DNA of 64,000 bases from an uncultured Candidatus Peribacteria bacterium (GCA_964354865.1 CAYHBN010000001.1:488-64487); one strand, 5' to 3'; shown: positions 19,785 to 52,464, counted from the stretch's first letter. Made by a program: numbers and translations. Notes: generated from the letters alone by a model not told the origin.

Positions 19785-20954
19785 TTTTACTTTTTTATTT
19801 ATTATTGTATTTAACTCTTTTTATGAGTATGCACTTCTTGAAATATTCGGCGCAAATTTGCAAGTCATAAAGCTTGATATTATGGCCTTGGCTAGCCATA
19901 ATTAGCGCGTCGATAGATTGTATTATTTTATAAATATTCTGCTATGAATATCGAAACAATTTCAGACGGACAATTATACAAAATGTGCAGGAATTTTGGC
20001 TCACAGGCACTCGAAGCTCGTCGTAAATTTATCGGACTATTGCCAGAGGTAAATCGTCGCAGATTGTATGAGAAAAAAGGATTTTCTTCGATCTTTCATG
20101 TCGCGGCGGTGCTCGCAGGTGTGAGCAAAGAACAAGTGAGATTAGCTATAAACCTTGGTACGCGTTTTGAAAATATGCCTCAATTGAGAGAAATTCTCGT
20201 TGAAGGGCGCACGAGTATTAATAAATTGTCTCGAGTCGTCTCGATTGCAACGATCGAAAATCAAGCTGAACTTGCCGAAAAAGTACTGATTTTATCGAAA
20301 GTCGCGCTCGAAGTTTTTGTGCGAGATTATTTGATTGAAAAAAATCGTGAGGCGCAAAGTGCGTATGTGAATAACGAAATCGAAGAAGGACTTTTTACAA
20401 ACCAAAACGCCGACGTAGCAAGCGTTCAAAATCAAGATGGCTTGTATAAACCAGAAACCGAGGCAAAATGTCTGCCCGGGCAGACCAGTAATCCTATAAA
20501 TTCTGCAAAACCTGCCCAACTCATCAGCTACATTGAAACCCCTATGTTAAGCGATACCGTGAAACAGGCTCTCAACGAGCTGCAAGAAAAAGGAATTAAT
20601 ATTGATCAAATCATTTTAGAGGCGCTCGAAAAACGAAAAGCTGATTTAGCGCAGAGAACGGCGGTACAAATAGAAAAAGCAGAAGCAAAATTAATCGAGC
20701 AAATTGTCGAGGGGAAAACGATCTCACCTCACGTTCCTGTTGCTTCAAAACGGCTTTTAAAAGAGGAACACGGCGATCGTTGTTCTGTCCCATTCTGCAA
20801 AAACAAAGCAAAAGTTATTCATCACACTAACCGTTTTTCAATAAGTAAGTCTCATGATCCGCGTTATCTGGCTCCATTATGCGACCCGCATCATCAAATC
20901 GCACATGCGGTAGATGTGAAGGCGACGGAGATGCGAAAAAATAATGGCATTTAA
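19785..20954. repeat. copy A of a diverged ~1.2-kb inverted repeat (HNH-type gene plus ~160 bp upstream)
   Basis: Aligns by eye with the reverse complement of 35857-37030. The shared upstream blocks TTTTACTTTTTT and GAGTATGCACTT sit at matching distances from the ATG. Confidence 0.7.
19944..20954 (+). CDS. HNH-type nuclease domain protein (paralogue A)
   Basis: C-terminal CSVPFCKNKAKVIHHTNRFSISKSHDPRYLAPLCDPHHQIAHA fits an HNH/His-Me finger. The N-terminal helical region is shared with 35857..36870. Confidence 0.75.
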   Translation: MNIETISDGQLYKMCRNFGSQALEARRKFIGLLPEVNRRRLYEKKGFSSIFHVAAVLAGVSKEQVRLAINLGTRFENMPQLREILVEGRTSINKLSRVVSIATIENQAELAEKVLILSKVALEVFVRDYLIEKNREAQSAYVNNEIEEGLFTNQNADVASVQNQDGLYKPETEAKCLPGQTSNPINSAKPAQLISYIETPMLSDTVKQALNELQEKGINIDQIILEALEKRKADLAQRTAVQIEKAEAKLIEQIVEGKTISPHVPVASKRLLKEEHGDRCSVPFCKNKAKVIHHTNRFSISKSHDPRYLAPLCDPHHQIAHAVDVKATEMRKNNGI

Positions 20955-21742
20955 TTGGCACGCGGTGAAAAAGGCGTTACCACAAGCTTCTCTGCATCTT
21001 CAACTCGATACTCCCCTATCTTCGTGCGCCGAAGTTCTTTTACATACCCACCGCAGCCAAGCAATTGACCGAGGTCGTGCGCGATAGAGCGAATGTAGGT
21101 TCCCTTTGAACACGCAATTCGCAGTGAAACAAATGGCCACTCGTATTTAATTACTTCAATCGAAGAGACATGTACTGTTCGTGGCTCAAGCTTAACCTCT
21201 TTACCCGCACGAGCTAAATCGTACGCACGCTGTCCTTTCACTTTAAGCGCAGAATAAATAGGTGGCGTTTGTTGAATGTCGCCACGAAATGACTCAAGTG
21301 CTTGATCAAATTTTGTGTTCGGGTAAGTGGTGAGCGGGGAAAACAAATTAGCGGGAACCGCGCTGCATGAAAAAAGAGAATCACAAACGGGGATATGGGT
21401 ACAAGGGGGAAGGTTTGGCCCATCCTTGTGGGTACAGGGAAAGTTTGTCGCCGCGAACGGCGCCAAATTCCCATCAGCATCATACGTATCAGAAACTTTT
21501 CCAAACTCAATTTCGACTTCATACTCTTTTGGCAATCCCATAAACTCAGAAATGCGTTTTGTGGCTTTACCGCAGGCAATAATCAATAGCCCCGTGGCAA
21601 GCGGGTCGAGCGTACCCGCATGCCCCATCTTTCGAATATTTAGTTTTTTTCGCAACTCACGAATAACCCCAAACGAGGTAATACCTTTTGGTTTATCGAT
21701 GAATAAGATTGAGCCTGTCTCTAGAGTGTCCATAATGAACAT
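20951..21742 (-). CDS. truB: tRNA pseudouridine(55) synthase TruB (no PUA domain)
   Basis: GHAGTLDPLATGLL (catalytic Asp), QTPPIYSALK, CSKGTYIRS. Start taken at ATG 21742 (MFIMDTLE...), with ATG 21733 as an alternative. Confidence 0.85.
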   Translation of the reverse strand: MFIMDTLETGSILFIDKPKGITSFGVIRELRKKLNIRKMGHAGTLDPLATGLLIIACGKATKRISEFMGLPKEYEVEIEFGKVSDTYDADGNLAPFAATNFPCTHKDGPNLPPCTHIPVCDSLFSCSAVPANLFSPLTTYPNTKFDQALESFRGDIQQTPPIYSALKVKGQRAYDLARAGKEVKLEPRTVHVSSIEVIKYEWPFVSLRIACSKGTYIRSIAHDLGQLLGCGGYVKELRRTKIGEYRVEDAEKLVVTPFSPRAN

Positions 21743-21748
21743 GCTATC

Positions 21749-22789
21749 ATGCCCAACCTCATTATGAGAAATGCACCGGAAAAAACATTGCGAGCTGAAG
21801 CCCATGCCTTGCTACCAAAGCTCGTAGAAGGAAAAATCCCCTTTTTACGCGATAGAGCAATTAGTCGTTTATATGATGTGCTCATGGGTTTTTCCGACAA
21901 AGATATGGTCGGATCACTTACCTCAATGCGCACCAACGACAATGGATTTGCGCTCTCTCCAGCTCATGCAAGCCTATGCCTTGTAGATAAACAGCGAACT
22001 CACCTTTTTTCAAAAGGAGTATACGAAGCTATACATTCCAAGATTAAGAAACTAAATGGTAAACGCAAAGTTCGAGTACTCTATGCGGGGTCTGGACCAT
22101 TTGCGACATTGGCCCTTGCCTCGATGAAAGCATTTCCACCAAATGAAGTGAGCTTTAATATCCTCGATATAAATGAATTCTCTCTAAACAATACAGAACA
22201 GGTATTTGATATTCTTGGATTTGAAAATCATATAGAAAGATTTACTCATGCTGATGCTGCATTATATGAACCATCTGAAACCTACGACATAATAATTTCA
22301 GAGACGATGAATGCAGGACTCAACAATGAGCCTTTGATTCCTATTTACCATAATCTTAAAAAATACCTTGAACCAGATGGAGATTTTATACCGGAAGATG
22401 TAGCTCTAGGATTAGCCTTTGAAAGAAGTGGATTTTTTAGCAGATTTCAAACACCACCGCTACGACGACTCACCGATGAAGCTACCGATCCTTGTCTCAT
22501 TAGCCTACAGTACACCCCCAGTCGAGATCTTTACGATTGTTCCTATGTATCGATAAGCACAACCGTAGAAGTGTATGGTGAGCTATGCTTAAAACCAAAT
22601 AAATCAATAATCACCAGAGACCAACTTGTGGGGCTTTTAGACCCATACATCCGTGCCGGAAAAACGATCTCTGTTTCGTATGATTCGCGAAAACCACTTC
22701 AATTTGCTCATAGAATTGACCAACCTCCAAAAATAATCTTCAATCAATCTGGCGATAAAAATGCAGTATACGATACTGATTTTTATTAG
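21749..22789 (+). CDS. putative class I SAM-dependent methyltransferase
   Basis: VRVLYAGSGPFATLAL (motif I-like) and YDIIISETM (post-I/II-like). The start is uncertain, because only 6 nt separate it from the divergent truB start. Confidence 0.45.
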   Translation: MPNLIMRNAPEKTLRAEAHALLPKLVEGKIPFLRDRAISRLYDVLMGFSDKDMVGSLTSMRTNDNGFALSPAHASLCLVDKQRTHLFSKGVYEAIHSKIKKLNGKRKVRVLYAGSGPFATLALASMKAFPPNEVSFNILDINEFSLNNTEQVFDILGFENHIERFTHADAALYEPSETYDIIISETMNAGLNNEPLIPIYHNLKKYLEPDGDFIPEDVALGLAFERSGFFSRFQTPPLRRLTDEATDPCLISLQYTPSRDLYDCSYVSISTTVEVYGELCLKPNKSIITRDQLVGLLDPYIRAGKTISVSYDSRKPLQFAHRIDQPPKIIFNQSGDKNAVYDTDFY

Positions 22790-24090
22790 AGAGAAACTTC
22801 TACTGCATCACTCAAAATTTCGCGTGCAACTTTTCGGTCGTCCCACTCGATTTTTTTGCCGTCGATAATTTGAATTGGCTCGCAGCCCTTGCCTGCGATA
22901 ATCACGGTATCACCCTCACGTGCCATGGTAAGCGCCAATCGAATTGCCTCGCGGCGATCGCGGATTTTCCACAGTCCCTCGCTCTCTTTGCGTTTAATTC
23001 CTTCACACACATTGTTAATAATTGTCATACGATCTTCGGTATATGAATCGTCGTCGGTCACCACAATCATGTCGGCGTATTTGTCGGCAATTGCCCCCAT
23101 TAATGGCCGTTTGCCCGCATCGCGTCCACCACCCGTACAGCCGAACACAAGCCATAGTTTGCGCTTGGTCAAAGGCTTAAACAGCTCGAGCACCCGTTCG
23201 AGCGACTCTTCGGTATGCGCATAATCGACAAGCACGGTGAAAGGCTGACCAACATCGATTCGCTCAAGTCGACCCGGAATTACAAATTCCTGCTCTAATC
23301 CTTTTTTAATGGATTTTAAATTCACACCACAGCTAATTGCAGCCCCAGCCGCTGCCAAGGCATTGCGCACATTAAATTCTCCCGGCAATTTAAAGTCGAT
23401 CGTCTCAGAGCCATTTGGAACACGAATCGTAAAAGTACAACCAACCGCCGAGTACTTCATATCTTCTGCATGTAAAAATCCTTTTGAAATACCGAAGGCA
23501 AGCTCCCTGTCTTTCGGAAACTGTGCAAAATACGGATACTGATCATCTTCAATCGGCAACACCGCAACTTTTTCAATACCGTGTTTTCGCTCACTATCTC
23601 CTAAAATTTTAAACAAGAGACCTTTTGCGTGCATGTAATTTTCAAAGCTCCCATGATACTCAAGGTGATCATTTTGAATATTGGTGAGAACAGCGGTGTC
23701 GTAATTCACTCCCCATAATCTGGCTTGCACCAAGGCATGCGAGGTAACCTCTAAGATCGCCACATCGCAGTGATCGTCAACCATCATCCTTAATAATTTC
23801 TGTAATCGAAAGCGACCTTGTGTTGATTGTTTGGTGTCATTAATCCACTTTAAATTCCCCACTTGAAAACCAATCGTCGAGGCAACGCCTACTTTTAAAC
23901 CCGCAGATTCAAGAATTTTTGCCGTAATGTGTGTAACCGTCGATTTTCCTTTTGTTCCGGTAATGGCAATGACGCGAAGCCGCTGAGCTGGAAATCCGTA
24001 TCGAATGGCAGCCAAAATCGCGATCAACTTATAATAGAGATGAAGTAGTGGATTGTGGTCAGAGATAAGCCCGCGTAAAAAACGTAGCAT
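22786..24090 (-). CDS. murE: Mur ligase family protein, MurE-like with short N-terminus
   Basis: P-loop ITGTKGKST, DHLEYHGSFENYMHAKGLLF, and a C-terminal domain. The position of the MurE DNPR motif reads DDSY (VVTDDDSYTED). Confidence 0.7.
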   Translation of the reverse strand: MLRFLRGLISDHNPLLHLYYKLIAILAAIRYGFPAQRLRVIAITGTKGKSTVTHITAKILESAGLKVGVASTIGFQVGNLKWINDTKQSTQGRFRLQKLLRMMVDDHCDVAILEVTSHALVQARLWGVNYDTAVLTNIQNDHLEYHGSFENYMHAKGLLFKILGDSERKHGIEKVAVLPIEDDQYPYFAQFPKDRELAFGISKGFLHAEDMKYSAVGCTFTIRVPNGSETIDFKLPGEFNVRNALAAAGAAISCGVNLKSIKKGLEQEFVIPGRLERIDVGQPFTVLVDYAHTEESLERVLELFKPLTKRKLWLVFGCTGGGRDAGKRPLMGAIADKYADMIVVTDDDSYTEDRMTIINNVCEGIKRKESEGLWKIRDRREAIRLALTMAREGDTVIIAGKGCEPIQIIDGKKIEWDDRKVAREILSDAVEVSL

Positions 24091-24128
24091 GGTTGTAGTG
24101 TATCGGGGTTCGTGGTGATCGTCAAAAA

Positions 24129-24137
24129 TGGTATAAT
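24129..24137 (+). promoter_or_regulatory. extended -10 TGGTATAAT upstream of 24173 ORF
   Basis: Exact TGnTATAAT, 35 nt before the ATG. The same 9-mer recurs at 39860 and 63332. Confidence 0.4.
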
Positions 24138-24172
24138 AGACAGAACCATTAATTAATTAAAAATAAAAATCT

Positions 24173-24691
24173 ATGGACGCAACCTTTGAAGCAAAAAATG
24201 CAGCACCTGAACAACGAGAAGTTTTTAGTGAAAGCCTAAAAGAGAAAGAAACACCACAAGAGCGCCATGAAAGATTGGTTGAAGAAGCAGCCATGAAAGA
24301 AGAACAGGAACACTTTGAAGCGCAGTACGAAAAACTAGAAAAAGCCCTCGCCGAAAAACAAGCAGAGCTTACCTCACTTATTGAACGCGCACGTGATGGC
24401 GAAGAGGTAAAAGGCGAAGAGGTAGAAGCCGCGCTACAAATTAAAGGTGAAAAAGGTATTGCTGAAGCATTGGCAAAATCAGTAAACGAGATTGGAAAAA
24501 CCGCGACGGTTATCACTCCTATTACTGAAGTAGTAGAAGCGTTGGGAATTATGGTCAAAGACGAACTTTCCACAGCCACACAGGGACGAATTGCACAAAA
24601 AGAGTTTGCAGAAAAAAGAAGCTGGTATCACACCACCGAAGACGGCAAAACACGGCTCGCGGAGATTGAAAAAGAAGTGAGCGCGAAATAA
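24173..24691 (+). CDS. hypothetical acidic coiled-coil protein
   Basis: 172 aa, Glu/Lys/Ala-rich. The antisense ORF 24157..24579 is Ser/Ala-rich, as expected for a mirror of a GAA/GAG-rich gene. Confidence 0.5.
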   Translation: MDATFEAKNAAPEQREVFSESLKEKETPQERHERLVEEAAMKEEQEHFEAQYEKLEKALAEKQAELTSLIERARDGEEVKGEEVEAALQIKGEKGIAEALAKSVNEIGKTATVITPITEVVEALGIMVKDELSTATQGRIAQKEFAEKRSWYHTTEDGKTRLAEIEKEVSAK

Positions 24692-24733
24692 AGATGCCTA
24701 CTCTGCATCTGTATATTGATACGTACTTGTTTA

Positions 24734-25153
24734 TTATTTTAACAAGCTCCTTCCCCTCTCAATATCCTTTTCAATCTGCACTCGAAGCTCGTCGATCGTC
24801 GCAAAGTTTTCAATAGGACGAAGATACTCACCCATTTCAATTTCAACGCTCGCCCCATACCAATCTTCATTAAAATCAAAAACGTGAATTTCGAAGGAGT
24901 CAGAGGCGGCAACTGCAGGGCGCGGGCCATAATGAGCGACTCCCGCCCTACACTCAGATTTAGGTTTTCCCGGGAAAACGTTAATGTCCTGTGACAAATT
25001 TTCCGGACTGGTACGGCGCACCTTCACCGCATAAATCCCCTGCTCTAGTTTTTCAAATTCAGGCTGATTCGGCGCAACTTGAATATTCATCGTCGGCGGC
25101 AGCCCGTGTTTTTTGCCAATTTTTTGGCCGTGAATGACTGTTCCGATAATCAT
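24734..25153 (-). CDS. monofunctional riboflavin kinase (RibF C-terminal-domain type)
   Basis: GTVIHGQKIGKKHGLPPTMNI, GIYAVKV, FEIHVFDFNEDWYG and LRPIENFATIDELRVQIEKD match the riboflavin kinase domain. There is no FAD-synthetase domain. Confidence 0.7.
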   Translation of the reverse strand: MIIGTVIHGQKIGKKHGLPPTMNIQVAPNQPEFEKLEQGIYAVKVRRTSPENLSQDINVFPGKPKSECRAGVAHYGPRPAVAASDSFEIHVFDFNEDWYGASVEIEMGEYLRPIENFATIDELRVQIEKDIERGRSLLK

Positions 25154-25169
25154 ATTAAAACGCTACGCG

Positions 25170-25874
25170 TTACGCGCTAAATTTCTGCATCGCTTTCGCA
25201 AATTCGACCAAAACGGCACGAGGGTCAGCCGACTTGGTAACTCCCGAGGCGACTAAAATTCCCTGTGCGCCCATTTCGAGGGCAATTCGTACGTCTTCGC
25301 CATTCTTAATTCCTGCGCCAACAATAACGGGCACTCCTTTAATCTCTGCAACCGCTCTGCGAATAATGTCGGGATTCGAGGTAGAAACCGACACATCGCC
25401 GCCAATCAATTCAGGTGGTTCAATTGCAACCGCATCTGGTTTAAGTGCAGCGATATTTTTGCCTTCTTCAACGGTCGCAGCGCAAACACAAGTGAAAAAT
25501 CCGACCTCACGGGCACGATTGAGGCTATCTGCCATATATATAAAAGGTATTCGCTTTTCAGCATGATTCAAGAGCGAGCCATCTGCACCCGCCATTTTGA
25601 GAGCCTCGGGCACAATATGTCCCGTAAATTGACCATGAGTCACACAGTCAAAATGATGGGCAAAAACGGGGATTTCAACCTGTGAGGCGATCATCCAAAT
25701 GTCCGTTGCCTGAGGCGCCACGGCGAAGCAAACTCCATATTCTTTCGCCACTTCTTCGTGAATTTTGGCGAGAGCCAAAGCCGCCATGCCCGTCGCGCTC
25801 TGATACGCCTTAAAATTAGTGATCAAAATGGGAAATCTAATCTGTTGTATGGTTGTTTTTGGTGCGTCGGTCAT
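25170..25874 (-). CDS. tpiA: triosephosphate isomerase, short archaeal type
   Basis: 234 aa. ILITNFKAY, LLNHAEKR, AVAIEPPELIG and GAGIKNGEDVRIALEMGAQGILVASGV are colinear with archaeal TIMs such as the M. jannaschii enzyme. Confidence 0.85.
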   Translation of the reverse strand: MTDAPKTTIQQIRFPILITNFKAYQSATGMAALALAKIHEEVAKEYGVCFAVAPQATDIWMIASQVEIPVFAHHFDCVTHGQFTGHIVPEALKMAGADGSLLNHAEKRIPFIYMADSLNRAREVGFFTCVCAATVEEGKNIAALKPDAVAIEPPELIGGDVSVSTSNPDIIRRAVAEIKGVPVIVGAGIKNGEDVRIALEMGAQGILVASGVTKSADPRAVLVEFAKAMQKFSA

Positions 25875-25881
25875 ACCAATG

Positions 25882-25910
25882 TTGACAAATTGTAAAGTTG
25901 ATGATATAGT
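25882..25910 (+). promoter_or_regulatory. sigma-70-type promoter TTGACA-17 nt-TATAGT
   Basis: TTGACA (25882-25887), a 17-nt spacer, then TATAGT (25905-25910), about 55 nt upstream of ATG 25966. Confidence 0.5.
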
Positions 25911-25965
25911 CCTATCTTCTGTTGACTCAAACGAGTCACTTTATACCCTAATTCTACACACTTTT

Positions 25966-26649: not shown

Positions 26650-26676
26650 TTAATGGTAAAAATCGTCGAAACTGAA

Positions 26677-26707
26677 AGGGGTGTGCGGCCATAGGCTTCA
26701 CACTCCT
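26677..26707 (+). terminator. hairpin after the beta-rich protein gene
   Basis: AGGGGTGTG-13 nt-CACACTCCT gives a 9-bp stem with one G-T pair. There is no U-tract, so this is weak. Confidence 0.25.
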
Positions 26708-26716
26708 ATTAAAAAA

Positions 26717-26725
26717 TGGTATACT
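26717..26725 (+). promoter_or_regulatory. extended -10 TGGTATACT upstream of the 1790-aa gene
   Basis: TGnTATACT, 25 nt before ATG 26751, followed by an A/T-rich leader. Confidence 0.4.
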
Positions 26726-26750
26726 AATAAGATTAATAAAAATTAAAACT

Positions 26751-29700: not shown

Positions 29701-32123
29701 TAACGTACATTTCAACAACTCCGGAAAAGAAAATTAATGGATTAGCAGCAGATGCTATTCAACAAAAAATCATTGAGAACCTTTCAAAACAAGGCAGCGA
29801 AGTGATGCAAATAAACGGTCCTGTTATTGATCTAAAATCTTCAGGAACGATTGTGTACTTACCGGGCGCCGGTACAGATGGCAAAGGCGAGTATGTTTTA
29901 TCAGATGTAACTGCAATTGATTTTTCACAGTTCGTCACAAAAAATCCTGACCAACTTGGCCAAATTAAACAAGAACTGGCTCAAAATGCCGGCATGAGTG
30001 TGAAAGAAGCAAAGCCAGGACAACTCACCTTAACTCCTTATGAAGCACACGGACAAATTGACGTTTACGCAGACCCAAGTTTGCCGAAAGATGTGTATGT
30101 TACATGGAAAAACGGCGACATGATTTTGTCGGCACCAAACAATGCAAATTTAAAAATTGCACGTTTCGATAAAACACTTCCATTACAAGATAACGGTGTC
30201 GTTGAAATATCAACGATAGTTATTACTGACAAAAATAATTTTGACTTTAATGCGATTCAACAACTTGCAACACACCGACTTACAAAATTCCCTGGGCGTG
30301 CGTGGGTAAGGAGCCGCGTGAACGAAGCACTTAATCCAAATGCGCCTACCACAAGCGCAATCGTTGACTACACCACCTTTACACAAGATATTGAACCAAC
30401 ACTGAAAGACCGTGTTCAGTCTGGCCCCGTTGACGATAAAGAATATCGAGATCGCCAAACAGAAGCCGACAAGGCACTGCTTCACGAACTTACGCGAGGG
30501 CAGGCGACCGCTCCTAATTATTCGATCGATCCACGTGTAAAGAGTTATGTTGAAAGACTTGAAAAGGAATACGACAAAGAAAAAAATCCAAAGAAGTACC
30601 CTAAAATGTTAGGAGACGAGTTACAGAAACACAAAGAAGATATTGCAGTTCTTCAAACAATTAAGGCGTACATCACCGAAGGATACGTAGTTGGAAAAAA
30701 CTTCAAACCAATCACCTCTCACGATGACATTCAGAGCCTTGAACGAGTAATTAATGTAGCGCTTGAAAAAGAAGGGCTTCCAAAAATACCTAATCATCAA
30801 GAGTTTGCCTTTGTTATTCGCCGATTTACCGATGCAACTTTCTTGCAGTTCGACGAAGAAGTAAAACCAAAAGATAGAGATGCGTTCTACAAAAAGAAGT
30901 TTGAGAACTATGACATGCCGATGTTTATCAAAGCGCTCGAAGCAGATCCTGATCCAACGCTGCGATTTACAGAAGAAGAGGGCAAGGCCGTAAGGGATTT
31001 GCTCATGGCAAACTTGAGCCGAATCGACTTTAATGCTACACCCGAAGAAATTAAAAATGGTACGTTCTTAATGCAAGATGTCGGCAATAAAATCCTCAAA
31101 ATAAAAGGTGAAGCACGCTATGTTTTCCAGAATGTTCCCGGCGCTCGCAATGAAGGAGTTTTGGGACGCATGGATATTAACACCACCGACGCGGGAATTA
31201 CAAAAAAACTCGCCCAGTATCTCATTAGAAAGAACTCTCCGTATAAAGAACGCACTGCTGTAGGAGTACAAGTCAATGAAAAAACCGATGCTCCAATTGA
31301 GAAAAAACGCGAGATGGCGCATGAATTTAGATCAATCTTTTCACAACGAGTAATGACCGTGTTGCCAGCAATGTTGACCGACGTAGAAATGCATCAGATT
31401 ACAAAATTCGTGCATGATCCAGATGGATTTGCGCTCAATCAAAAAGATCACGACGCACACCACAATACAGACGTAATGCGCTTTGATACCATTAATAAAG
31501 TGCTTGGATATTTAGACACGATTAGAGCCGCCGAACTTGCGGGACAAAAAACCGTAAAACTTTCCGAAAACTTCGAAATGCACATAATGCCAATTGCCTA
31601 TATTGGTGCGTACTCAGTTTGTACCAACTATATTAAGGCGCTTGAAGATGAACTGTTTGTGCTTGTTGGTAAAGAGACAAACACCGTACGAATTCCGCAT
31701 TGGACCGGAGCAATGACCGAACTCGCAATACTGGCCAAAACAGATGAAAAATTCAGAATCTTCGCCGTTGTACTTGGTTTGGCAGTGCCAATTCCACGAG
31801 CATCGAAAGAAGTTGGTGAGGAAGATGAAACAACGACAACCTGTGAGGGAGATGACTGTCCTAAAGAAGGCGACGGTCCAGGTGGCATTATTGGTGAAGG
31901 GGGCGATACTAGAGAAGGCGGTGGCGACTTCAGAATTAGAATTCCTCGCCTCACGTTCAAGGTTCCGAACCTCGATGAGCAGCCGAAGCCAATTGCGGGT
32001 GTACACCTCTCTGGTGGCGGCCTCAATGCAAATTTAAAAGCTATCAATACAATCTCTACAAGTGATACCGCAAGCGCAGGTCTCATTAAACCAACCGGAG
32101 ATGACGATACAAACGTAAACTAA
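26751..32123 (+). CDS. giant hypothetical protein (1790 aa)
   Basis: Uninterrupted 5.4-kb ORF. No signal peptide or TM seen. Acidic and Lys-rich N-terminal third, a Gly-rich beta-like block (28953-29285), and a Gly/Asp/Glu-rich tail containing CEGDDC. Confidence 0.8.
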   Translation: MGAQQENADRAQAVLTLENLRADQDAIPSTPPIDGNKPMAAEITTAITRAIKDKYGVYTSEAFVRENIPQAVLAQMTGDVDLYDDLNDEWDDITYANFDPKKLMFSFHEADGDLIADFNLEPVLKPFLEKNFEDKILQRRRAAQVRGYDRRRDMADAVGQLNLLPLKYNEGSNRPNVPKKEKDEVDKPAAGQAKSEGQADPKKPEGVNVPPTPPAPEKAPEVPAYEEKPSDDMLKTYEIKRQKRENVLTSTVRERPDIVLKTRAELDPAMVRDATDENPDTFDKSWRNFNNFSEMEQLMKEDYAKETGYSVNPFVVAGFNTDALKDLIKQDAIKDNTLSFDEISTRVFTDRYYQFKEVLTTYGVTEECFDLLESDVGSDVDEIDDPLDEDTLLESFQKVSKNNDRLSNVKDQGEIKDAGIRKLYPYKEQIKNVTQVLGDYCAAITTLINYLQNAKLNVGEELEDEKTLDKDHSPVAVALRELFLNNNGDHNLRRYDDELHEVLGLGENPPKAKFKDLNGNVAFVDGDWFNQKQSAETAYKLAYEAAQPPLGKNGEIPEGLDPEATKIYINHLLNIGATTIPAIKANESIGKIIEDLKEAGVTVPPDNTVIDFKNDPAMDQHNLYKALEVHRISELTEDRVSPAPKAKFKARHLLMRVGSVVYQKEQEQANRDVILDNKRKTLNLKKEQVASIMEGLKATGKFNQEELQQVEQRMLLGIMLVGNVKADNVSQVINGIGVSGGIPIDLGHDVTLTVGGAAMVGNGFGLNAGIGKKFTVEKGTTITLSGGPGINFGEKTVVGLSGNVSLTKELESCDLYVEAGTTAGFDVDNGKLFPGFNAAVGFNRTRAAVAENYKASIDTAYSDAGINKLDAMTPEARYEEVLKNPTKYPGLGDLALRLKQASTQGTTGKIMPGMNERIFADSYEAFKKEKREHSMQEAVDGVTFAGLKLGVATTVMPSPFPPFFPVSIPTPNIGVEFNLWKRKLTYISTTPEKKINGLAADAIQQKIIENLSKQGSEVMQINGPVIDLKSSGTIVYLPGAGTDGKGEYVLSDVTAIDFSQFVTKNPDQLGQIKQELAQNAGMSVKEAKPGQLTLTPYEAHGQIDVYADPSLPKDVYVTWKNGDMILSAPNNANLKIARFDKTLPLQDNGVVEISTIVITDKNNFDFNAIQQLATHRLTKFPGRAWVRSRVNEALNPNAPTTSAIVDYTTFTQDIEPTLKDRVQSGPVDDKEYRDRQTEADKALLHELTRGQATAPNYSIDPRVKSYVERLEKEYDKEKNPKKYPKMLGDELQKHKEDIAVLQTIKAYITEGYVVGKNFKPITSHDDIQSLERVINVALEKEGLPKIPNHQEFAFVIRRFTDATFLQFDEEVKPKDRDAFYKKKFENYDMPMFIKALEADPDPTLRFTEEEGKAVRDLLMANLSRIDFNATPEEIKNGTFLMQDVGNKILKIKGEARYVFQNVPGARNEGVLGRMDINTTDAGITKKLAQYLIRKNSPYKERTAVGVQVNEKTDAPIEKKREMAHEFRSIFSQRVMTVLPAMLTDVEMHQITKFVHDPDGFALNQKDHDAHHNTDVMRFDTINKVLGYLDTIRAAELAGQKTVKLSENFEMHIMPIAYIGAYSVCTNYIKALEDELFVLVGKETNTVRIPHWTGAMTELAILAKTDEKFRIFAVVLGLAVPIPRASKEVGEEDETTTTCEGDDCPKEGDGPGGIIGEGGDTREGGGDFRIRIPRLTFKVPNLDEQPKPIAGVHLSGGGLNANLKAINTISTSDTASAGLIKPTGDDDTNVN

Positions 32124-32131
32124 CTAGTACT

Positions 32132-32302
32132 ATGAAAAAATATATTATTATCGCACTAGTAGTAACAGTTCTGATAGCTGGACTCTACCTAACTATGAAA
32201 ATGATTAATGGCCAACCTAAAAGCCAGGCAAAGCTCCCAAGTACAAATAACTATGCCATGAATAAAACAGGATCAGCAGGAATAATAAAATCAAAAGAAT
32301 AA
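32132..32302 (+). CDS. small single-pass membrane protein (56 aa), below ORF-track cutoff
   Basis: ATG 32132, TAA 32300-32302: MKKYIIIALVVTVLIAGLYLTMKMINGQPKSQAKLPSTNNYAMNKTGSAGIIKSKE. It fills the gap between the two large genes. Confidence 0.45.
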   Translation: MKKYIIIALVVTVLIAGLYLTMKMINGQPKSQAKLPSTNNYAMNKTGSAGIIKSKE

Positions 32303-32322
32303 ATAAACGCAAATTAATTCAC

Positions 32323-35300
32323 ATGCTTCTCAGAAATAAAACAAAAATTCTCGTTTCACTCTCAATCATGCTCATAAGCATGTTAAGTACATCAGTTGTA
32401 TATGCTGATACTATTTATGGCCGCAGCTGTGAAATACGAGTATTCCCCTTTAATCCACAAGGACAGCTAAAAGAGTACGATGCTGCTGAGGATTTCCTGA
32501 CTCCTCCGGTCATTGATGAAGGGAACACAAATGCATGTTCACAACACCTCGATTTCACACATGCAAATGGGTACGGACCTACGGGGCCATATCATCCACA
32601 AAATCCTATTCCTCTTGAAGAAAGTACGATCAGCGAAAATGCTACCGAGATAACAGTGCCAACAGCGTATCATGAACATGCATTTTTCAATGACTACACA
32701 ATCGCACAAAATGATCGATATTATTACAAAGCAGCTTTAAATAAATTCTTGATCGTAGCATACGTAGACGATAATCAAGATGGTATAGATAACATTAAAA
32801 CAGATCATATCGTATGCGACATGCCGTTTCCACCGGACGTAAGTGCAGAAACAAAAGCTCGCATTAAACCAATAATTGAAAGTTGTAATACAAATGGGAA
32901 TCCATTGCCGATCCTCGGAGGTACAAACATTTTAAGAGAAGATACTCGATCTGACAGTGGTAAAAAAATAGTAAAAGTTACTTGGACATTCGGAATAAAT
33001 GACGACGAAGATTCACCGGCAGTATTTGCAGAAAATGTTCCAAATGATGGCGGGAATTTTACCGTTTATGATGTGACTGATGGCAATCCCGCAAGCTTAC
33101 AAGTAGATTTAACAAATGAATACAATAGAACGTTAGGCTTTAACGGAGCTGGATTTGGACTCAATCTACAGTCAGCCAACAATATTCAAGAAGATGCATG
33201 GAGTGCAACTACGGTATCGTATGCATATATTCAAAATTATCGCATTCCAAAAGCGACATACTCAGAAGAGACAGCCGGACTGGGATACGATGAAAATCAC
33301 AACGGATGGCAATTAATTCCAAATCCCGACCCATCAAAGAATCCAGAATCAAATATTAGAATGCCTGTTGGATCCCTCACTTCAATCTGGCGACAACCCA
33401 CTCCCGATATTCCAGAAACACCAACCTCAAAACTCACACTGATTAAACAAGTTCTCGATGAAAATAATGCTGTAGTAAACGACAACCCAGACCTTATTCA
33501 GTCATTCAATCTCTACGCAGAAAAAACCGACCCAGCACAAGCTGAAGCGATGAATGCAGCACCTCGAGGACGACCGGTATCTAATCCTCAAAATCAACCT
33601 GCTCGTCAAAGACGAGCACCCGTTCAACCGAAAAGATTATCACTAGGCGGAAGTATTTTCGAACTTGCTCATGACCTTGTTGGCATACCGCTCGAAATGC
33701 AAATGGCCTTCGGTGACCGCGTAAATTACAAGAGCGGTGAAACGCACGATGTCGAAGCTGACAGCACCTATACCATTGGTGAAGAACAAAAAGAGGGATA
33801 CACGTTACAGAAAATTGAATGTAAAAATAGCGCAAGAGCAGATGATACGTATGGACGTCTTGGCGCAAATCATCAAACACTTATTCCTGCGGGAATCGAT
33901 GTCACATGCCGACTTACCAACAAATCAACTGACTCTGGTGAAGAAACATGTCCAGATGGAAGCCCAATCCCAGAAAACGGAGTATGCGAAAATCCCCCAC
34001 TCGAGTGTCCTGATGGACAAGTACTTAATATTACAAGCGGACTATGTGTACCTATTATCTGTGAAGAAAATGAACACCTCGTCGGCAACGAATGTGTTCC
34101 CGATAATCCAGAAGGACCAGTCTGCGATCCTGGATATTTCTCCAATGGAGTAGAGTGCGTACCAAATATTCCAATAGAACCAATTTGTCCTCCAGGATTT
34201 GTTCAAGGCCCGCTCGGCTGTGTGCAATTTAACCCACCATCAGGTGGCGTCCCCGCTGGTAGCTTCGATAAAACGGTAAGCACGCTAAATGACGGCCCAC
34301 TCTCGGTCATTCAACAAGGAGACAGTGCAAAATATAAACTCACGTTTACAGCAACACAAAGAAATGTTGACTCAGTAACTATCAAAGATGAATCGTTTGG
34401 CTATAATAAGGATTTTTCCGCAGCGCGCGAAACAGGATTCAAAGGCAGCCTCTTTAGATTACAACCAATTTTTGATGGCAAACTCTTTAGAGTCATTAAA
34501 AAAATTCCTGGATATCCAGATAACATTATTGAGCGTTGTAATCCAATCATCAATGTATTTCCCGACGGCTCACAAAGCTGTTACACAAGCAACGATTTTG
34601 TTGCAGGCATAACTGTCAAAGATGTACGCCAAGGAACGAGCGTTTCAGTTGAATTAGTTGCTCAACTCATCAATTCAAGAATTAATCCCGCTGTGTGTGC
34701 AAACGAAATTGCACGTGGCAACACCGGATTCTGTGGCGAACAATTCCACAACATTGCGAGTGCAGTCGACAGCGAGGGGCGTAATTATTCAGATTTTGCA
34801 GACCTCTTTACGCCATGCCCATATTTGCTTACACGTGGTTTGGGCGACATTATTCTTGAACAAGGATTTACCTACGGCAGCGACATTACCGCATGTTTTT
34901 CATTGCCGAATATTGAAGGCGAAATTATTGAACCTTTATTCCCTATCGAAGAAGAAGAAATTGTAAAAGGAGGTAAAGAAGCACCATCGCCAGCACCGCT
35001 CATTCCTTCAAACTTACTTTGTAAAAATAGTAATAAAGACGGTGGCGCTGTTTCTCAATACAGCAATCCAATCAAAAATCTTTCAAGTGGATTATGTGAG
35101 TTACAGCAATCAATTTCACAAAGCCTCACGTCAGATGCAATTCGTCAAGCAATCAGTGATAATATTGTGAGGTTTACCAGGGAGAATGCGAACTTGAATA
35201 TTGCTACCATTAGAGGTGAAGATATTAATGAAGTAAATACTGTCACCCTAAGTAATCAAAATTATAAAGTGTATAAAACAAATAATGCCCTTGAAGTAAA

Positions 35301-35763
35301 AAATGTATCACCGGTGAAAGAAGGATCACGAACCTTCATCATTCAAGGCAAAGACCTTACTATTTCGAGCAACATAGTCTTCGACGAACAAGTTGTGCGC
35401 AACGCTTCATTCAAAGAGACCCCTTCAATCGCATTCATCGTTATCGGTGGCGACATAAAAATTGCACCGAATGTCACTCACCTCGATGGTGTGTATGTAT
35501 CGATCAAAGATCCTAAAAAACCAAATGGCCCAGGAGGACAAATTACTGGCACTGGCGCGGCTGATTTAGGGGTTTCGTCACTCGAATTCAACGGCGCAAT
35601 CGTGGGCGACATTGAACCACTCTTTAAGTCTCGCACCTTCGCCGGTGACGCAAAAAAGAATCAAGGAACAATCGTTATAAATTACGGCGCATGGTTGTAC
35701 TACAACTTGCCACCCGTCTTGCGCGACTTGGTAAATCTTCAGCAAGAGCAAATGGCGCGGTAA
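32323..35763 (+). CDS. large secreted protein with Cys-pair mini-repeats (1146 aa)
   Basis: Signal peptide MLLRNKTKILVSLSIMLISMLSTSVVYA/DT. Five tandem C-x10-12-C units (33949-34221). TLIKQV...YTIGEEQKEGYTLQKIEC resembles prealbumin-fold surface domains. Confidence 0.8.
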   Translation: MLLRNKTKILVSLSIMLISMLSTSVVYADTIYGRSCEIRVFPFNPQGQLKEYDAAEDFLTPPVIDEGNTNACSQHLDFTHANGYGPTGPYHPQNPIPLEESTISENATEITVPTAYHEHAFFNDYTIAQNDRYYYKAALNKFLIVAYVDDNQDGIDNIKTDHIVCDMPFPPDVSAETKARIKPIIESCNTNGNPLPILGGTNILREDTRSDSGKKIVKVTWTFGINDDEDSPAVFAENVPNDGGNFTVYDVTDGNPASLQVDLTNEYNRTLGFNGAGFGLNLQSANNIQEDAWSATTVSYAYIQNYRIPKATYSEETAGLGYDENHNGWQLIPNPDPSKNPESNIRMPVGSLTSIWRQPTPDIPETPTSKLTLIKQVLDENNAVVNDNPDLIQSFNLYAEKTDPAQAEAMNAAPRGRPVSNPQNQPARQRRAPVQPKRLSLGGSIFELAHDLVGIPLEMQMAFGDRVNYKSGETHDVEADSTYTIGEEQKEGYTLQKIECKNSARADDTYGRLGANHQTLIPAGIDVTCRLTNKSTDSGEETCPDGSPIPENGVCENPPLECPDGQVLNITSGLCVPIICEENEHLVGNECVPDNPEGPVCDPGYFSNGVECVPNIPIEPICPPGFVQGPLGCVQFNPPSGGVPAGSFDKTVSTLNDGPLSVIQQGDSAKYKLTFTATQRNVDSVTIKDESFGYNKDFSAARETGFKGSLFRLQPIFDGKLFRVIKKIPGYPDNIIERCNPIINVFPDGSQSCYTSNDFVAGITVKDVRQGTSVSVELVAQLINSRINPAVCANEIARGNTGFCGEQFHNIASAVDSEGRNYSDFADLFTPCPYLLTRGLGDIILEQGFTYGSDITACFSLPNIEGEIIEPLFPIEEEEIVKGGKEAPSPAPLIPSNLLCKNSNKDGGAVSQYSNPIKNLSSGLCELQQSISQSLTSDAIRQAISDNIVRFTRENANLNIATIRGEDINEVNTVTLSNQNYKVYKTNNALEVKNVSPVKEGSRTFIIQGKDLTISSNIVFDEQVVRNASFKETPSIAFIVIGGDIKIAPNVTHLDGVYVSIKDPKKPNGPGGQITGTGAADLGVSSLEFNGAIVGDIEPLFKSRTFAGDAKKNQGTIVINYGAWLYYNLPPVLRDLVNLQQEQMAR

Positions 35764-35856
35764 TGGCTTGCCGTCATTTCAAAAATGTCCTTGCATCCGT
35801 ATTATTTACGTTTTGCTATAACTACTTTGAAACTGTGCGCTTTGACTAACTCAACC

Positions 35857-36870
35857 TCACTCGCGCATTTTATTTCGCCGCATCTCCGATGCTTTAACAT
35901 CGACCGCATGTGCAATTTGGTGATGAGGGTCGCACAGTGGGGCTAGGTAACGAGGATCGTGTGAATGGCTAATTGAAAATCGATTTGTATGGTGAATAAC
36001 TTTCGCTATATTTTTGCAAAATGGAATTGAGCACATTTCCCCGTGTTCATCTTTCAATAGGCGTTCAGTTGCGACGGGAATATAATGAGAAATTGGTTTT
36101 CCTTCGACAATTTGCTCGATTAATTTCTGCTCAGCTTTCTCTACTTGCACCGCTGTTCTCTGCTCTAAATCCTTTTTTCGTTTTTCAAGCGCCTCTAAAA
36201 TGATTTGATCAATGTTAATTCCTTTTTCTTGCAGTTCGTTGAGTTGTTTCTTCACTTCGTCGCCCAAAATTGGGGTTTTAATGTATGTGATGAGTTGTGC
36301 GGGTTTTGTAGAATTTATGGAGTCATCGATCTGCCCGGGCAGACATTTTGCCTCGGTTTCTGGCTTAGGAAAACCATCTTGATTTTGACCGCTTGCCGCA
36401 TCGGTGTTTTGGTTTGTAAAAAGTCCTTCTTCTATTTCGTTATTCAACTGCGCACTTTGTGCAATGCGATTTTTTTTAATCAAATAATCTCTGACAAAAA
36501 CATCGAGCGCGGCTTTCGATAAAATAAGTACTTTTTCGGCAAGTTCAACCTGATTTTCGACCGTTGCGATCGAGACGACTCGTGACAATTTATTAACACT
36601 CGCGAGCCCTTCAACTAAAATTCCTCTCAATTGTGGCATATTCTCGAATCGATTATCGAGGTTTATCACTAATCTCACTTGTTCTTTGCTCACTCCCGCA
36701 ATCACCGCTGCAAAGTGAAAAAGTGATACAAACTTTTTTGTTTCGTACAGGCGACGCGCGTTTACTTCTGGCAAAAGACCGATGAATTTGTTTCGCGCCA
36801 AAAGTGCCTCACGTCCAAATTTCCGGCACATTTCGTACAACTGACCGTCTGAAATTGTTTGAATATTCAT
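35857..36870 (-). CDS. HNH-type nuclease domain protein (paralogue B)
   Basis: Start at ATG 36870 (MNIQTISDGQLYEMCRKFG), aligned with paralogue A. C-terminal CSIPFCKNIAKVIHHTNRFSISHSHDPRYLAPLCDPHHQIAHA. Confidence 0.75.
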   Translation of the reverse strand: MNIQTISDGQLYEMCRKFGREALLARNKFIGLLPEVNARRLYETKKFVSLFHFAAVIAGVSKEQVRLVINLDNRFENMPQLRGILVEGLASVNKLSRVVSIATVENQVELAEKVLILSKAALDVFVRDYLIKKNRIAQSAQLNNEIEEGLFTNQNTDAASGQNQDGFPKPETEAKCLPGQIDDSINSTKPAQLITYIKTPILGDEVKKQLNELQEKGINIDQIILEALEKRKKDLEQRTAVQVEKAEQKLIEQIVEGKPISHYIPVATERLLKDEHGEMCSIPFCKNIAKVIHHTNRFSISHSHDPRYLAPLCDPHHQIAHAVDVKASEMRRNKMRE

Positions 36871-37030
36871 AACACAATATTTGTTAAAAAAATACAACCT
36901 ACCGACGAACCAATTATGGCCACTACAAGCCAAAATGTCACGCTTTCCGACTTGCAAATCAGAGCGGAATATTTCAAAAAGTGCATACTCACAAACCATG
37001 CACTCTGCAATATATTTCAAAAAAGTAAAA
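35857..37030. repeat. copy B of the diverged ~1.2-kb inverted repeat
   Basis: The reverse complement aligns with 19785-20954, including the upstream non-coding blocks. Confidence 0.7.
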
Positions 37031-52436: not shown

Positions 52437-52464
52437 TTACGTAATTAACTCTTAGCCAAATTCG

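What the first reader, a model, noticed from the sequence alone, without database searches (positions are those of the whole stretch)
19785..37030. Diverged 1.2-kb inverted repeats (HNH-type paralogues plus their upstream regions) bracket a 14.9-kb segment
Genes 19944-20954 (+) and 35857-36870 (-) encode colinear proteins that are identical at most positions by eye. Examples are MNI[EQ]TISDGQLY.MCR.FG, VSKEQVRL.INL..RFENMPQLR and a near-identical C-terminal HNH block. About 160 bp upstream of each ATG is also homologous, with GAGTATGCACTT 119/120 nt and TTTTACTTTTTT about 150 nt from the starts. The copies face each other across truB, a methyltransferase-like gene, the murE-like gene, ribK, tpiA and the giant-protein locus. 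Inverted repeats of this size are substrates for recombination-driven inversion, and they may also mark the spread of a selfish HNH gene family.
Basis: seen in the sequence. Interest (0 to 1): 0.6.

Follow-up and report, generated by a model that had tools for sequence, protein, structure and literature searches.

The report
Old HNH paralogues carrying in-gene palindromes
The two inverted repeats are anciently diverged copies of an undescribed nuclease gene family from candidate-phyla bacteria. Each copy keeps its own promoter region and a perfect DNA palindrome written into its coding sequence, probably its own binding site, so the pair is not a likely switch for flipping the 14.9-kb segment.

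Summary
Arms 19785-20954 (+) and 35857-37030 (-) are about 80% identical and encode proteins that are 81% identical, and about 160 nt of upstream DNA is also homologous.

The inversion reading is not supported. The copies are old (dS about 0.95, dN/dS 0.13, longest identical run 34 nt). Both junctions are conserved in related genomes. Only assembled contigs were available, and they break at the repeat.

The genes belong to a large unannotated Peregrinibacteria/Gracilibacteria family (556 clusters at 50% identity). The architecture is a ParB/Noc-like helix-turn-helix domain, a disordered linker, a coiled coil and an HNH nuclease. Each gene carries a conserved promoter leader.

The unexpected result lies in the linker-coding DNA. 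A dyad GGCTT-N4-AAGCC sits exactly 32 nt before a perfect CG-centred palindrome. In 68 of 75 genes the palindrome is perfect. Its centre switches symmetrically (CCCGGG, CACGTG, TACGTA, CGCGCG), so amino acids change in reverse-complement codon pairs. Residue 67 of the recognition helix covaries with palindrome base ±6.

The gene unit is present or absent between tpiA and ribK in close relatives, and solo modules exist.

Most likely the protein binds its own gene. Whether that serves autoregulation or mobility is unresolved.

The parts
19785..19943 (+). Leader of copy A. It holds the conserved box TGAGTATGCACTTCTTGAAATA (19824-19845), a sigma-70-like promoter (TTGATA 19874-19879, 17 nt, CATAAT 19897-19902) and the dyad ATTATGGC-N8-GCCATAAT (19879-19902), which overlaps the spacer and the -10 box.
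   Evidence: The 111-nt ungapped core of the leader (19820-19930) is 79% identical to copy B, against 62% at third codon positions.
19944..20954 (+). Copy A coding sequence (P0001, 336 aa). Helical N-domain 1-150 with a helix-turn-helix at residues 50-74, disordered linker 151-196, long helix 220-256, and an HNH motif at residues 280-321.
20091..20165 (+). Copy A helix-turn-helix (residues 50-74). The putative recognition helix is S61-N70 and includes L67.
   Evidence: Secondary structure. Residue 67 covaries with palindrome base ±6.
20439..20452 (+). P1 dyad of copy A, GGCTTGTATAAACC (9 of 10 matches to GGCTT-N4-AAGCC). It encodes part of DGLYKP.
20470..20485 (+). P2 of copy A: the perfect 16-bp palindrome GTCTGCCCGGGCAGAC, centred on CG at a codon boundary, encoding C-L-P-G-Q-T. 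Its centre lies 32 nt from the P1 centre.
20781..20906 (+). HNH (His-Me finger) motif of copy A. Invariant residues are C280, C285, H293, H294, P306, C313, H316 and H317.
35857..36870 (-). Copy B coding sequence (P0002, 337 aa) with the same architecture. The ATG at 36870 is supported by the family alignment; the longer TTG-started ORF that reaches 37059 is not.
36330..36343 (-). P2 of copy B: the perfect 14-bp palindrome TCTGCCCGGGCAGA.
36362..36375 (-). P1 dyad of copy B (GGCTTAGGAAAACC on the + strand, 9 of 10 matches), 32 nt centre-to-centre from P2.
36871..37030 (-). Leader of copy B. It holds the conserved box (36970-36991), a promoter (GTGACA 36941-36936, 17 nt, CATAAT 36918-36913) and a dyad (36913-36936).
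20955..35856 (.). The 14.9-kb bracketed segment: truB, an ORF without a Pfam hit, a Mur ligase, a 172-aa ORF, ribK, tpiA, a 276-aa ORF, and giant proteins of 1790 and 1146 aa. These are ordinary chromosomal genes and do not belong to the element.
   Evidence: The gene order is colinear with L090, L093 and L003.

Best explanation
The two arms are ancient paralogues of one self-contained gene unit, made of a leader of about 160 nt or more plus the coding sequence. They belong to a large, unannotated family found in Peregrinibacteria and Gracilibacteria. The protein has a ParB/Noc-like helix-turn-helix DNA-binding domain, a disordered linker, a coiled coil and an HNH nuclease.

The upstream homology is the family's own promoter region. 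It has a dyad over the -10 box and is kept by selection. The DNA encoding the disordered linker contains a bipartite dyad module that is conserved as nucleic acid, not as protein. P1 (GGCTT-N4-AAGCC) is followed 32 nt later, about three helical turns, by P2, a perfect CG-centred palindrome.

The most likely mechanism is that a dimer of the protein binds its own gene through the helix-turn-helix. It would bind at P2/P1 and at the related dyad in the leader. This would give cis self-recognition and probably autorepression, as ParB/Noc dimers bind palindromic parS/NBS sites and as I-TevI represses its own promoter.

Shown here: the paralogy and its age, purifying selection on both copies, the conserved leader, DNA-level conservation and symmetric covariation of P1/P2, covariation of recognition-helix residue 67 with P2 base ±6, and gain/loss of the unit.

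Inferred: actual binding, the regulatory outcome, and what the HNH domain cuts.

The 14.9-kb segment is ordinary chromosome that happens to lie between two old copies. It is not an invertible element.
For: Age and selection: dS 0.95, dN 0.12, dN/dS 0.13. Identity at the three codon positions is 85/91/62%. The longest exact run is 34 nt.

Leader: the 111-nt leader core is 79% identical, above the level at synonymous sites. The same motifs occur in L001 and L002, whose protein is only 53% identical. In other clades the homology between gene pairs likewise covers 150-290 nt of leader plus the coding sequence and stops at the stop codon.

Family: 720 or more homologues, named only as hypothetical or HNH proteins of Peregrinibacteria/Gracilibacteria. 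There are 556 clusters at 50% identity with E<=1e-30. No curated Pfam family matched above its cutoff, and there were no NCBIfam, PADLOC or PDB-sequence hits. No neighbouring gene recurs.

Fold: pLDDT 88 for the full protein and 96.7 for the N-domain. The top 16 PDB matches of the N-domain model are all ParB/Noc/Spo0J DNA-binding domains (probability up to 1.00, TM 0.43-0.63).

P2: 68 of 75 non-identical genes have a perfect palindrome of 10 bp or more at a codon boundary with a CG centre. The inner codon pair is reverse-complement symmetric in 68/68 genes, with six types. The second pair is symmetric in 61/68. In the structured domains of the same genes, used as a control, the longest palindrome arm is mostly 3-5 nt. 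The centre changes at least 23 times on the tree, even between sister genes. Mismatches in the outer arms are not enriched for G·U.

P1: there is strong synonymous-codon bias. GGC is used 56/58 times against a background of 0.29, AAG 35/39 against 0.25, GAG 18/18 against 0.33, and CCA 37/47 against 0.25. A GGC-N8-GCC dyad, in most cases of the same GGCTT-N4-AAGCC form, also lies in the leader of about 35 of 76 genes.

The P2-type pattern occurs only inside the two genes in the window.

Residue 67 is Arg in 14/14 genes with G at position -6. It is not Arg in 43/47 genes with C there (Fisher 1.4e-10). About 5 of 6 independent contrasts go the same way and none goes the opposite way.

Precedents: ParB/Noc DNA-binding-domain dimers insert the recognition helix into palindromic parS/NBS sites (PMC7383237). 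I-TevI acts as an autorepressor at an operator (PMC2988022).
Against: No binding or expression data exist. RNA runs hold none of the sequence.

Foldseek E-values are 0.1-1 and the TM-scores are moderate, so the ParB/Noc resemblance is at fold level only.

The centre of P2 (±2, ±3) switches faster than the protein could co-evolve, and two centre types coexist in one gene (L012, L086). The protein therefore cannot read those bases specifically, and simple dimer binding does not explain why they must stay symmetric.

The residue-67 correlation rests on about 6 well-supported contrasts (sign test p about 0.03-0.06). It could instead reflect coevolution within the protein, with the linker Leu/Val.

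Autoregulation alone does not explain why a site should sit inside the coding sequence, nor the role of the conserved nuclease.

In the window copies the leader dyad is ATGGC-N8-GCCAT, only loosely like P1.
Confidence: 0.55

Rival explanations
1. Selfish mobile nuclease gene, in the manner of a homing endonuclease. The P1-P2 module is the nuclease's recognition and cleavage target. Solo modules in intergenic DNA would be landing pads or remnants. The unit spreads or is replaced at such sites, and the leader dyad only damps expression.
For: The family is multi-copy and stands alone in varied contexts. There is a clean presence/absence between tpiA and ribK: a 1317-nt unit in L003, a 188-nt spacer in L093 (flanks 93-95% identical) and a 16-nt gap in the window. 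The L093 spacer holds a solo module with the same 32-nt spacing and a stop codon in the old frame (NGFNEPKY*LKNVHVNSF). It is not derived from the L003 gene. Intact modules also lie in the leaders of L042 and L089, including a 26-bp perfect palindrome. Some genes have tandem P2 units. The HNH catalytic residues are invariant.
Against: Both window copies are old positional residents. Site A is shared with L090 and site B with the distant L005/L006. dN/dS of 0.13 at dS of about 1 shows long-term function rather than decay. A target inside the element's own ORF is the reverse of homing topology. Break repair from a central site would copy outward on both sides and could not close. No target-site duplications or terminal repeats were seen. 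There are no PADLOC or phage-family hits beyond generic HNH.
Confidence: 0.25
2. The palindromes act in the mRNA, not the DNA. P1 and P2 would form hairpins that pause ribosomes, attenuate or terminate transcription between the two domains, or serve as RNase III sites.
For: P2 is flagged as terminator-like, though on the antisense strand of each window copy. In many family members it is flanked by A- and T-runs (AAAAGTCTG...CAGACTTTT). A separate hairpin at the 5' end of the transcript in one clade tolerates G·U pairs (GGTGAG/CTTACC), so RNA structure is used elsewhere in the unit.
Against: The symmetry reaches positions ±1 to ±3, which would lie in the loop of any hairpin and should be free to vary. 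All are Watson-Crick in 68/75 genes, and ±2 and ±3 covary. Outer-arm mismatches are not enriched for G·U (20 of 86, about the chance level). The same P1-type dyad lies upstream of the promoter in many leaders, where it would not be transcribed. Solo modules persist in non-coding DNA. The window copies have no T-tract after P2 in the sense direction.
Confidence: 0.1
3. One reading: the 1.2-kb inverted repeats are substrates for recombination-driven inversion of the 14.9-kb segment. This would happen either by general homologous recombination or by a site-specific event at the shared palindrome.
For: The arms are inverted and share a 34-nt identical run (20451-20484) that contains P2. Contigs in runs X3 and X4 show an 'opposite strands' joint 20487->36294.
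Against: Identity is 80%, synonymous sites are saturated, and there is no conversion tract or identity step at P2. The joint has only 33-37 nt on its short side and starts right after the shared 34-mer, where a k=31 assembly graph branches. A loose end at the same place in X1 equals the third paralogue L001. Both junctions are conserved in relatives. No invertase gene was found among the neighbours scanned.
Confidence: 0.05

Closest known systems
ParB / Noc DNA-binding domains with their palindromic parS / NBS sites (PMC7383237)
   Same: The N-domain is a helical helix-turn-helix fold whose 16 best PDB matches are all ParB/Noc/Spo0J. The candidate site is a 14-24-bp perfect palindrome with a CCCGGG or CACGTG centre. 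By my own knowledge those are the centres of NBS and parS. From the paper I confirmed only the parS sequence GATGTTTCACGTGAAACATC and the NBS half ...GGGAAATA. A recognition-helix residue covaries with a half-site base.
   Different: There is no ParB/Srx CTPase N-terminal domain and no Pfam ParB hit. The domain is fused to an HNH nuclease. The site lies in the protein's own ORF in every member. The central bases vary freely but symmetrically. The family is multi-copy in each genome.
Free-standing or intron-encoded homing endonucleases that also repress their own promoter (I-TevI; T4 MobE, an HNH enzyme) (PMC2988022, PMC2790892)
   Same: A two-part protein with a DNA-binding module, a long linker and a nuclease. 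The gene stands alone between housekeeping genes and shows presence/absence polymorphism. An operator-like dyad overlaps the gene's own promoter.
   Different: The domain order is reversed (helix-turn-helix at the N-terminus, HNH at the C-terminus). The hosts are chromosomes of CPR bacteria, not phages. The candidate target lies inside the gene itself. The copies are long-lived, under purifying selection and positionally conserved.
DUF222-HNH proteins (the mycobacterial REP13E12 repeat family). From my own knowledge; other first-stage notes use this label.
   Same: A multi-copy family with a helical N-terminal region, a C-terminal HNH and unknown function. Some members carry NCBI's name 'HNH endonuclease signature motif containing protein'.
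   Different: No DUF222 (PF02720) hit for P0001/P0002 at E<=0.1, nor for any of 70 members at E<=0.01. Whether REP13E12 genes carry an in-frame palindrome was not examined.
Rickettsia palindromic elements, which are in-frame palindromic DNA inside protein-coding genes. From my own knowledge.
   Same: A DNA-level palindromic sequence is tolerated inside an ORF, in a part of the protein that is structurally permissive.
   Different: Here the palindrome is confined to one gene family, always at the same position and in the same frame. It is not scattered across unrelated genes.

Membership tests
HNH (His-Me finger) nuclease | A ββα-metal motif with Cys/His zinc ligands and a catalytic His | tested here: met
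   C280, C285, H293, H294, P306, C313, H316 and H317 are invariant in 70 sequences. PHROG HNH families match at E 3e-6 to 2.5e-7. There are weak Pfam HNH/HNHc_6 hits. The model shows β-β-α at residues 291-335, and IscB and Cas HNH appear among the fold matches.
HNH (His-Me finger) nuclease | Nuclease activity | not testable with these tools
   Needs a biochemical assay.
ParB/Noc family | A helix-turn-helix DNA-binding domain of the ParB type | tested here: inconclusive
   The top 16 PDB matches of the N-domain model are all ParB/Noc/Spo0J (probability 0.6-1.0, TM 0.38-0.63), but E is 0.13-1.3 and the profile search of PDB sequences finds no ParB.
ParB/Noc family | An N-terminal ParB/Srx CTP-binding domain | tested here: not met
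   The protein begins directly with the helical domain. No ParBc Pfam hit in P0001, P0002 or 70 members.
ParB/Noc family | Binds a palindrome of about 16 bp as a dimer | not testable with these tools
   Only indirect evidence: residue 67 covaries with P2 base ±6.
DUF222-HNH (REP13E12) | A match to Pfam DUF222 (PF02720) | tested here: not met
   No hit.
Homing endonuclease gene | Presence/absence of the gene at an otherwise conserved locus | tested here: met
   L003 (unit present), L093 (flanks 93-95% identical, unit absent), and the window and L090 (tpiA and ribK adjacent).
Homing endonuclease gene | Cleaves the empty allele at a site that the insertion disrupts | tested here: inconclusive
   The candidate site lies inside the gene and is not split by it. 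The 'empty' L093 spacer carries a solo module. There are no cleavage data.
Invertible DNA segment | Inverted repeats similar enough for recombination, or bound by an invertase encoded nearby | tested here: not met
   Identity is 80% and the longest exact run is 34 nt. No recombinase was found among the 10 neighbouring proteins scanned.
Invertible DNA segment | Both orientations present in reads | tested here: inconclusive
   Only Logan contigs exist, and they break at the repeat. The single 'opposite strands' joint has a 33-37-nt side next to the shared 34-mer.
IscB / HEARO (omega RNA) systems | A RuvC domain plus an upstream structured RNA | tested here: not met
   No RuvC domain. No Rfam hit in the leader even at E<=0.1.

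The most novel reading that the evidence does not exclude
A nuclease gene family that carries its own recognition palindrome inside its reading frame. The protein-coding halves flank a cis-acting DNA module that can also exist alone. The module would be the unit of recognition for a new kind of selfish maintenance or copy mechanism, with solo modules serving as landing pads. Its perfect symmetry would be regenerated mechanistically, by templated or hairpin-type repair at the cut site, rather than by ordinary selection on two half-sites.
Probability: 0.2. Interest if true: 0.85.

Novelty: new variant of a known kind. Interest (0 to 1): 0.62.

Why it matters
The finding as submitted, an inversion substrate, turns out to be ordinary: two old paralogues.

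What lies underneath is not described in any family library or paper I could search. It is a very large family of helix-turn-helix-HNH genes in candidate-phyla bacteria, in which a stretch of coding sequence is conserved as DNA rather than as protein. The conservation is clean enough that amino acids change only in reverse-complement codon pairs (Pro/Gly, His/Val, Tyr/Val, Arg/Ala).

This gives a directly testable protein-DNA pairing, residue 67 against base ±6. It is also a natural example of overlapping codes in a disordered linker. It may open a view onto how selfish or regulatory nucleases persist in the tiny genomes of uncultivated bacteria.

It also warns annotators that the conserved 'K-S-L-P-G-Q' motif in these proteins is a DNA signal, not a peptide motif.

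Tried and rejected
Tools and scans that gave little or nothing:
- The single genome-contig scan, made with one protein, returned only one locus.

Library searches with no useful hit:
- Pfam, NCBIfam, PADLOC and PDB sequence searches gave no family beyond weak HNH matches.
- Rfam gave nothing in the leader.
- Literature searches for Peregrinibacteria + HNH, for CPR + HNH + palindrome, and for DUF222 + HNH found nothing relevant.

Reads:
- DNA runs are held only as contigs, which break at the repeat.
- RNA runs hold none of the sequence.

Ideas tested and dropped:
- A conserved partner gene: clustering of neighbouring ORFs found none.
- A recombination breakpoint at P2 among copies A, B and L001: sliding-window identity shows no step there.
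- That the HTH co-evolves with the centre of P2: the centre switches at least 23 times on the tree, between sister genes and even within one gene.
- That the 1.2-kb gap without a long ORF at 52437-53638 is a decayed family copy: tblastn with 70 family proteins finds nothing there.
- That 12 loci lacking an ORF in my scan use genetic code 25: they do not. My sequence pattern simply missed variant motifs.

Full report
**1. The observation**

The inverted repeat is real. The repeat finder reports arms 19923-20944 / 35870-36891 (1022 nt, 80%) and 19820-19930 / 36885-36995 (111 nt, 79%), separated by 14.9 kb. The alignment places the 5' boundary at TTTTACTTTTTT (19785 / about 37030). The 3' boundary lies a few codons before the stop codons. 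The proteins, P0001 (19944-20954 +) and P0002 (35857-36870 -), are 81% identical without gaps. The genes between the arms are truB, an ORF with no Pfam hit, a Mur ligase, riboflavin kinase, TIM and two giant proteins. A family-4 glycosyltransferase (MraY-like) and holA lie outside the arms.

**2. Age of the duplication**

Identity by codon position is 85, 91 and 62%. The Nei-Gojobori estimates are dS 0.95, dN 0.12 and dN/dS 0.13. The longest identical run is 34 nt, at 20451-20484. The copies are therefore old and both are under purifying selection. They have not been homogenised, and sliding-window identity among A, B and a third paralogue shows no conversion tract.

The 111-nt core of the non-coding leader is 79% identical. 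That is well above the level at synonymous sites (about 46% identical, pS 0.54), so the leader is itself under selection.

**3. Inversion**

Only assembled Logan contigs were available for the runs that hold the sequence, and they break at the repeat.

One 'opposite strands' joint (20487->36294) appears in two low-coverage runs. It has only 33-37 nt on its short side and begins right after the shared 34-mer. In the best run a loose end at the same position equals the sequence of a third paralogue, L001/P0004. I read the joint as an artefact of the assembly graph or of paralogy.

Comparative evidence argues for stability.
- L090 (truB 80% identical) is colinear from tpiA to truB and ends in a convergent HNH-family gene, as at site A.
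- L005/L006 are distant (holA 37% identical, homologous giant protein). They have holA | HNH | giant proteins, as at site B.

No recombinase was found among the neighbours scanned. I put active inversion at about 5%.

**4. The family**

P0001 has 720 or more homologues. Where these are named at all, they are hypothetical or HNH proteins of Peregrinibacteria, Gracilibacteria or Patescibacteria. A profile search finds 556 clusters at 50% identity with E<=1e-30. Pfam, NCBIfam, PADLOC and PDB sequence searches give nothing beyond weak HNH matches, and PHROGs matches only generic HNH families.

AlphaFold models are confident: pLDDT 88 for the whole protein and 96.7 for the N-domain. They show a helical N-domain with a helix-turn-helix at residues 50-74, a disordered linker (151-196), a long helix (220-256) and a ββα HNH motif. 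The 16 best PDB matches of the N-domain model are all ParB/Noc/Spo0J DNA-binding domains. The probabilities are high, but the TM-scores are moderate (0.43-0.63) and E is 0.1 or above. The HNH zinc and catalytic residues are invariant. No neighbouring gene recurs across loci.

**5. The leader**

In the window copies the leader holds three elements:
- a conserved box (19824-19845 / 36970-36991);
- a promoter (TTGATA-17-CATAAT in A, GTGACA-17-CATAAT in B);
- a dyad, ATTATGGC-N8-GCCATAAT, across the spacer and the -10 box.

The same motifs occur upstream of L001 and of L002, whose protein is only 53% identical. In other clades, gene pairs share 150-290 nt of leader plus the coding sequence, and the homology stops at the stop codon. 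A 16-gene clade shows a conserved GGCTT-N4-AAGCC dyad, a promoter, and a 5' hairpin, GGTGAG-N6-CTCACC, that tolerates G·U pairs. Rfam finds nothing in the leader.

**6. The in-gene palindromes**

In 68 of 75 non-identical family genes, the linker-coding DNA holds a perfect palindrome of 10-24 bp. It is centred on CG at a codon boundary and is always in the same frame (AAA AGT CTG CCC GGG CAG ACT TTT). The inner codon pair is reverse-complement symmetric in 68/68 genes, with six types: CCC/GGG 34, CAC/GTG 13, CGC/GCG 10, TAC/GTA 8, TCC/GGA 2 and TTC/GAA 1. The second pair is symmetric in 61/68. In the structured domains of the same genes, the longest palindrome arm is mostly 3-5 nt.

Amino acids therefore change as Pro/Gly, His/Val, Tyr/Val and Arg/Ala pairs. 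That is a nucleic-acid constraint, not a protein one.

The centre type changes at least 23 times on the family tree, including between sister genes. Two centre types can sit in tandem in one gene (L012, L086). The symmetry includes positions ±1 to ±3, which would form the loop of any hairpin. Mismatches in the outer arms are not enriched for G·U. I therefore favour a duplex-DNA dyad over an RNA hairpin.

Exactly 32 nt upstream, centre to centre, lies a second dyad, P1 (GGCTT-N4-AAGCC, encoding N-G-L-x-[K/E]-P). It shows strong synonymous-codon bias: GGC 56/58, AAG 35/39, GAG 18/18 and CCA 37/47, against backgrounds of 0.25-0.33. A GGC-N8-GCC dyad, in most cases of the GGCTT-N4-AAGCC form, recurs in the leader of about 35 of 76 genes.

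The P2-type pattern occurs only inside the two genes in the window. In the other loci it lies almost only inside family genes.

**7. Link to the protein**

Residue 67 lies in the putative recognition helix (S61-N70). It is Arg in 14 of 14 genes whose P2 arm has G at -6 (GTG...CAC). It is not Arg in 43 of 47 genes with C there (CTG...CAG); Fisher p is 1.4e-10. On well-supported branches about 5 of 6 independent contrasts go the same way and none goes the opposite way, giving a sign-test p of about 0.03-0.06.

This is what direct readout of P2 by the protein's own helix-turn-helix would produce. ParB/Noc DNA-binding-domain dimers recognise palindromic parS/NBS sites in this way (PMC7383237). The evidence remains correlative.

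**8. Gain and loss**

tpiA and ribK are adjacent in the window (16-nt gap) and in L090. In L003 they are separated by a full 1.3-kb unit. In L093, whose flanks are 93-95% identical to L003, they are separated by a 188-nt spacer.

That spacer holds a solo module, ATGGCTTTAATGAGCC-(32 nt centre to centre)-TGTTCACGTGAACA. In the family's frame it reads NGFNEPKY*LKNVHVNSF, and it is not derived from the L003 gene. Intact modules also lie in the leaders of L042 and L089.

The unit therefore turns over at some loci while other copies stay in place across deep divergence.

**9. Reading**

Best supported (about 0.55): the arms are old copies of a self-recognising helix-turn-helix-HNH gene unit. The protein binds dyads in its own leader and coding sequence, giving autoregulation or cis recognition. 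Partial precedents are I-TevI, which represses its own promoter at an operator (PMC2988022), and ParB/Noc with their palindromic sites.

Rivals:
- a selfish, mobile nuclease whose target is the module (0.25);
- RNA-level hairpins (0.1);
- an active invertible segment (0.05).

Three things remain unexplained: why the centre of P2 must stay perfectly symmetric while its sequence drifts quickly, why the site sits inside the ORF, and what the nuclease cuts.

**10. Limits**

- No raw reads and no RNA evidence were available.
- All functional statements are inferences from sequence.

Noticed in passing
window 53135-53638: A 500-nt intergenic region with a cluster of CG-centred perfect palindromes: CCGTACCGGTACGG at 53208-53221 and AGTGTGCACGTGCACACT at 53226-53243. 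The half-site of the second matches the 'GTG-arm' P2 type of other family members. A TTCCCGGGAA follows, and then a hairpin of about 170 nt (53360-53527) that Rfam matches only to miRNA-precursor models, below their thresholds. These could be trans sites for a family protein or an unknown RNA gene.
   Followed up: partly
window, whole: There is an excess of CG-centred perfect palindromes with arms of 7 nt or more: 8 observed against 1.17 expected, reached in 0 of 200 first-order Markov simulations. Besides the two P2 sites and the two at 53208 and 53226, they lie at 14667 and 52434 (both AT-rich), 24964 and 56932.
   Followed up: partly
window 24964-24979: GTTTTCCCGGGAAAAC, a perfect 16-bp palindrome inside ribK. 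By my own knowledge it resembles the Noc-binding-site core TTTCCCGGGAAA. No P1 partner lies at the 32-nt spacing.
   Followed up: no
window 37095-37106: GTTCCCGGGAAC, a 12-bp palindrome between the end of the copy B leader and holA.
   Followed up: no
L001 (ENA contig, 2134 nt) and run X1: A third close paralogue (P0004; 78% identical to P0001 over the whole protein, 87-88% to both window copies over the conserved domains). It has the same P2 (GTCTGCCCGGGCAGAC) and a longer linker, and it is present in the run that best holds the window. It may be a third copy in the same genome.
   Followed up: partly
L093:1741-1927: A solo P1-32 nt-P2 module (centre CACGTG) with an in-frame stop. It occupies the tpiA-ribK spacer where the close relative L003 has a full gene.
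   Followed up: yes
L089:650-676 and L042:159-224: Intact P1-P2 modules in the 5' leaders of family genes. L089 has a 26-bp perfect palindrome, AAAAAGTCTGCGCGCGCAGACTTTTT.
   Followed up: partly
L012, L086, L021, L022, L029 (linker regions): Tandem P2 units within one gene, with different centres (CCCGGG + CGCGCG; TACGTA + CCCGGG). Secondary copies have an asymmetric chimeric centre (GTCTGTACGGGCAGAC), and this is conserved among three related genes.
   Followed up: partly
window 20951-20954: Copy A and truB are convergent and their 3' ends overlap by 4 nt. L090 shows the same convergent arrangement.
   Followed up: partly
As called, it overlaps the 5' end of truB by 57 nt. A homologous 350-aa gene sits at the same place in L090.
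   Followed up: no
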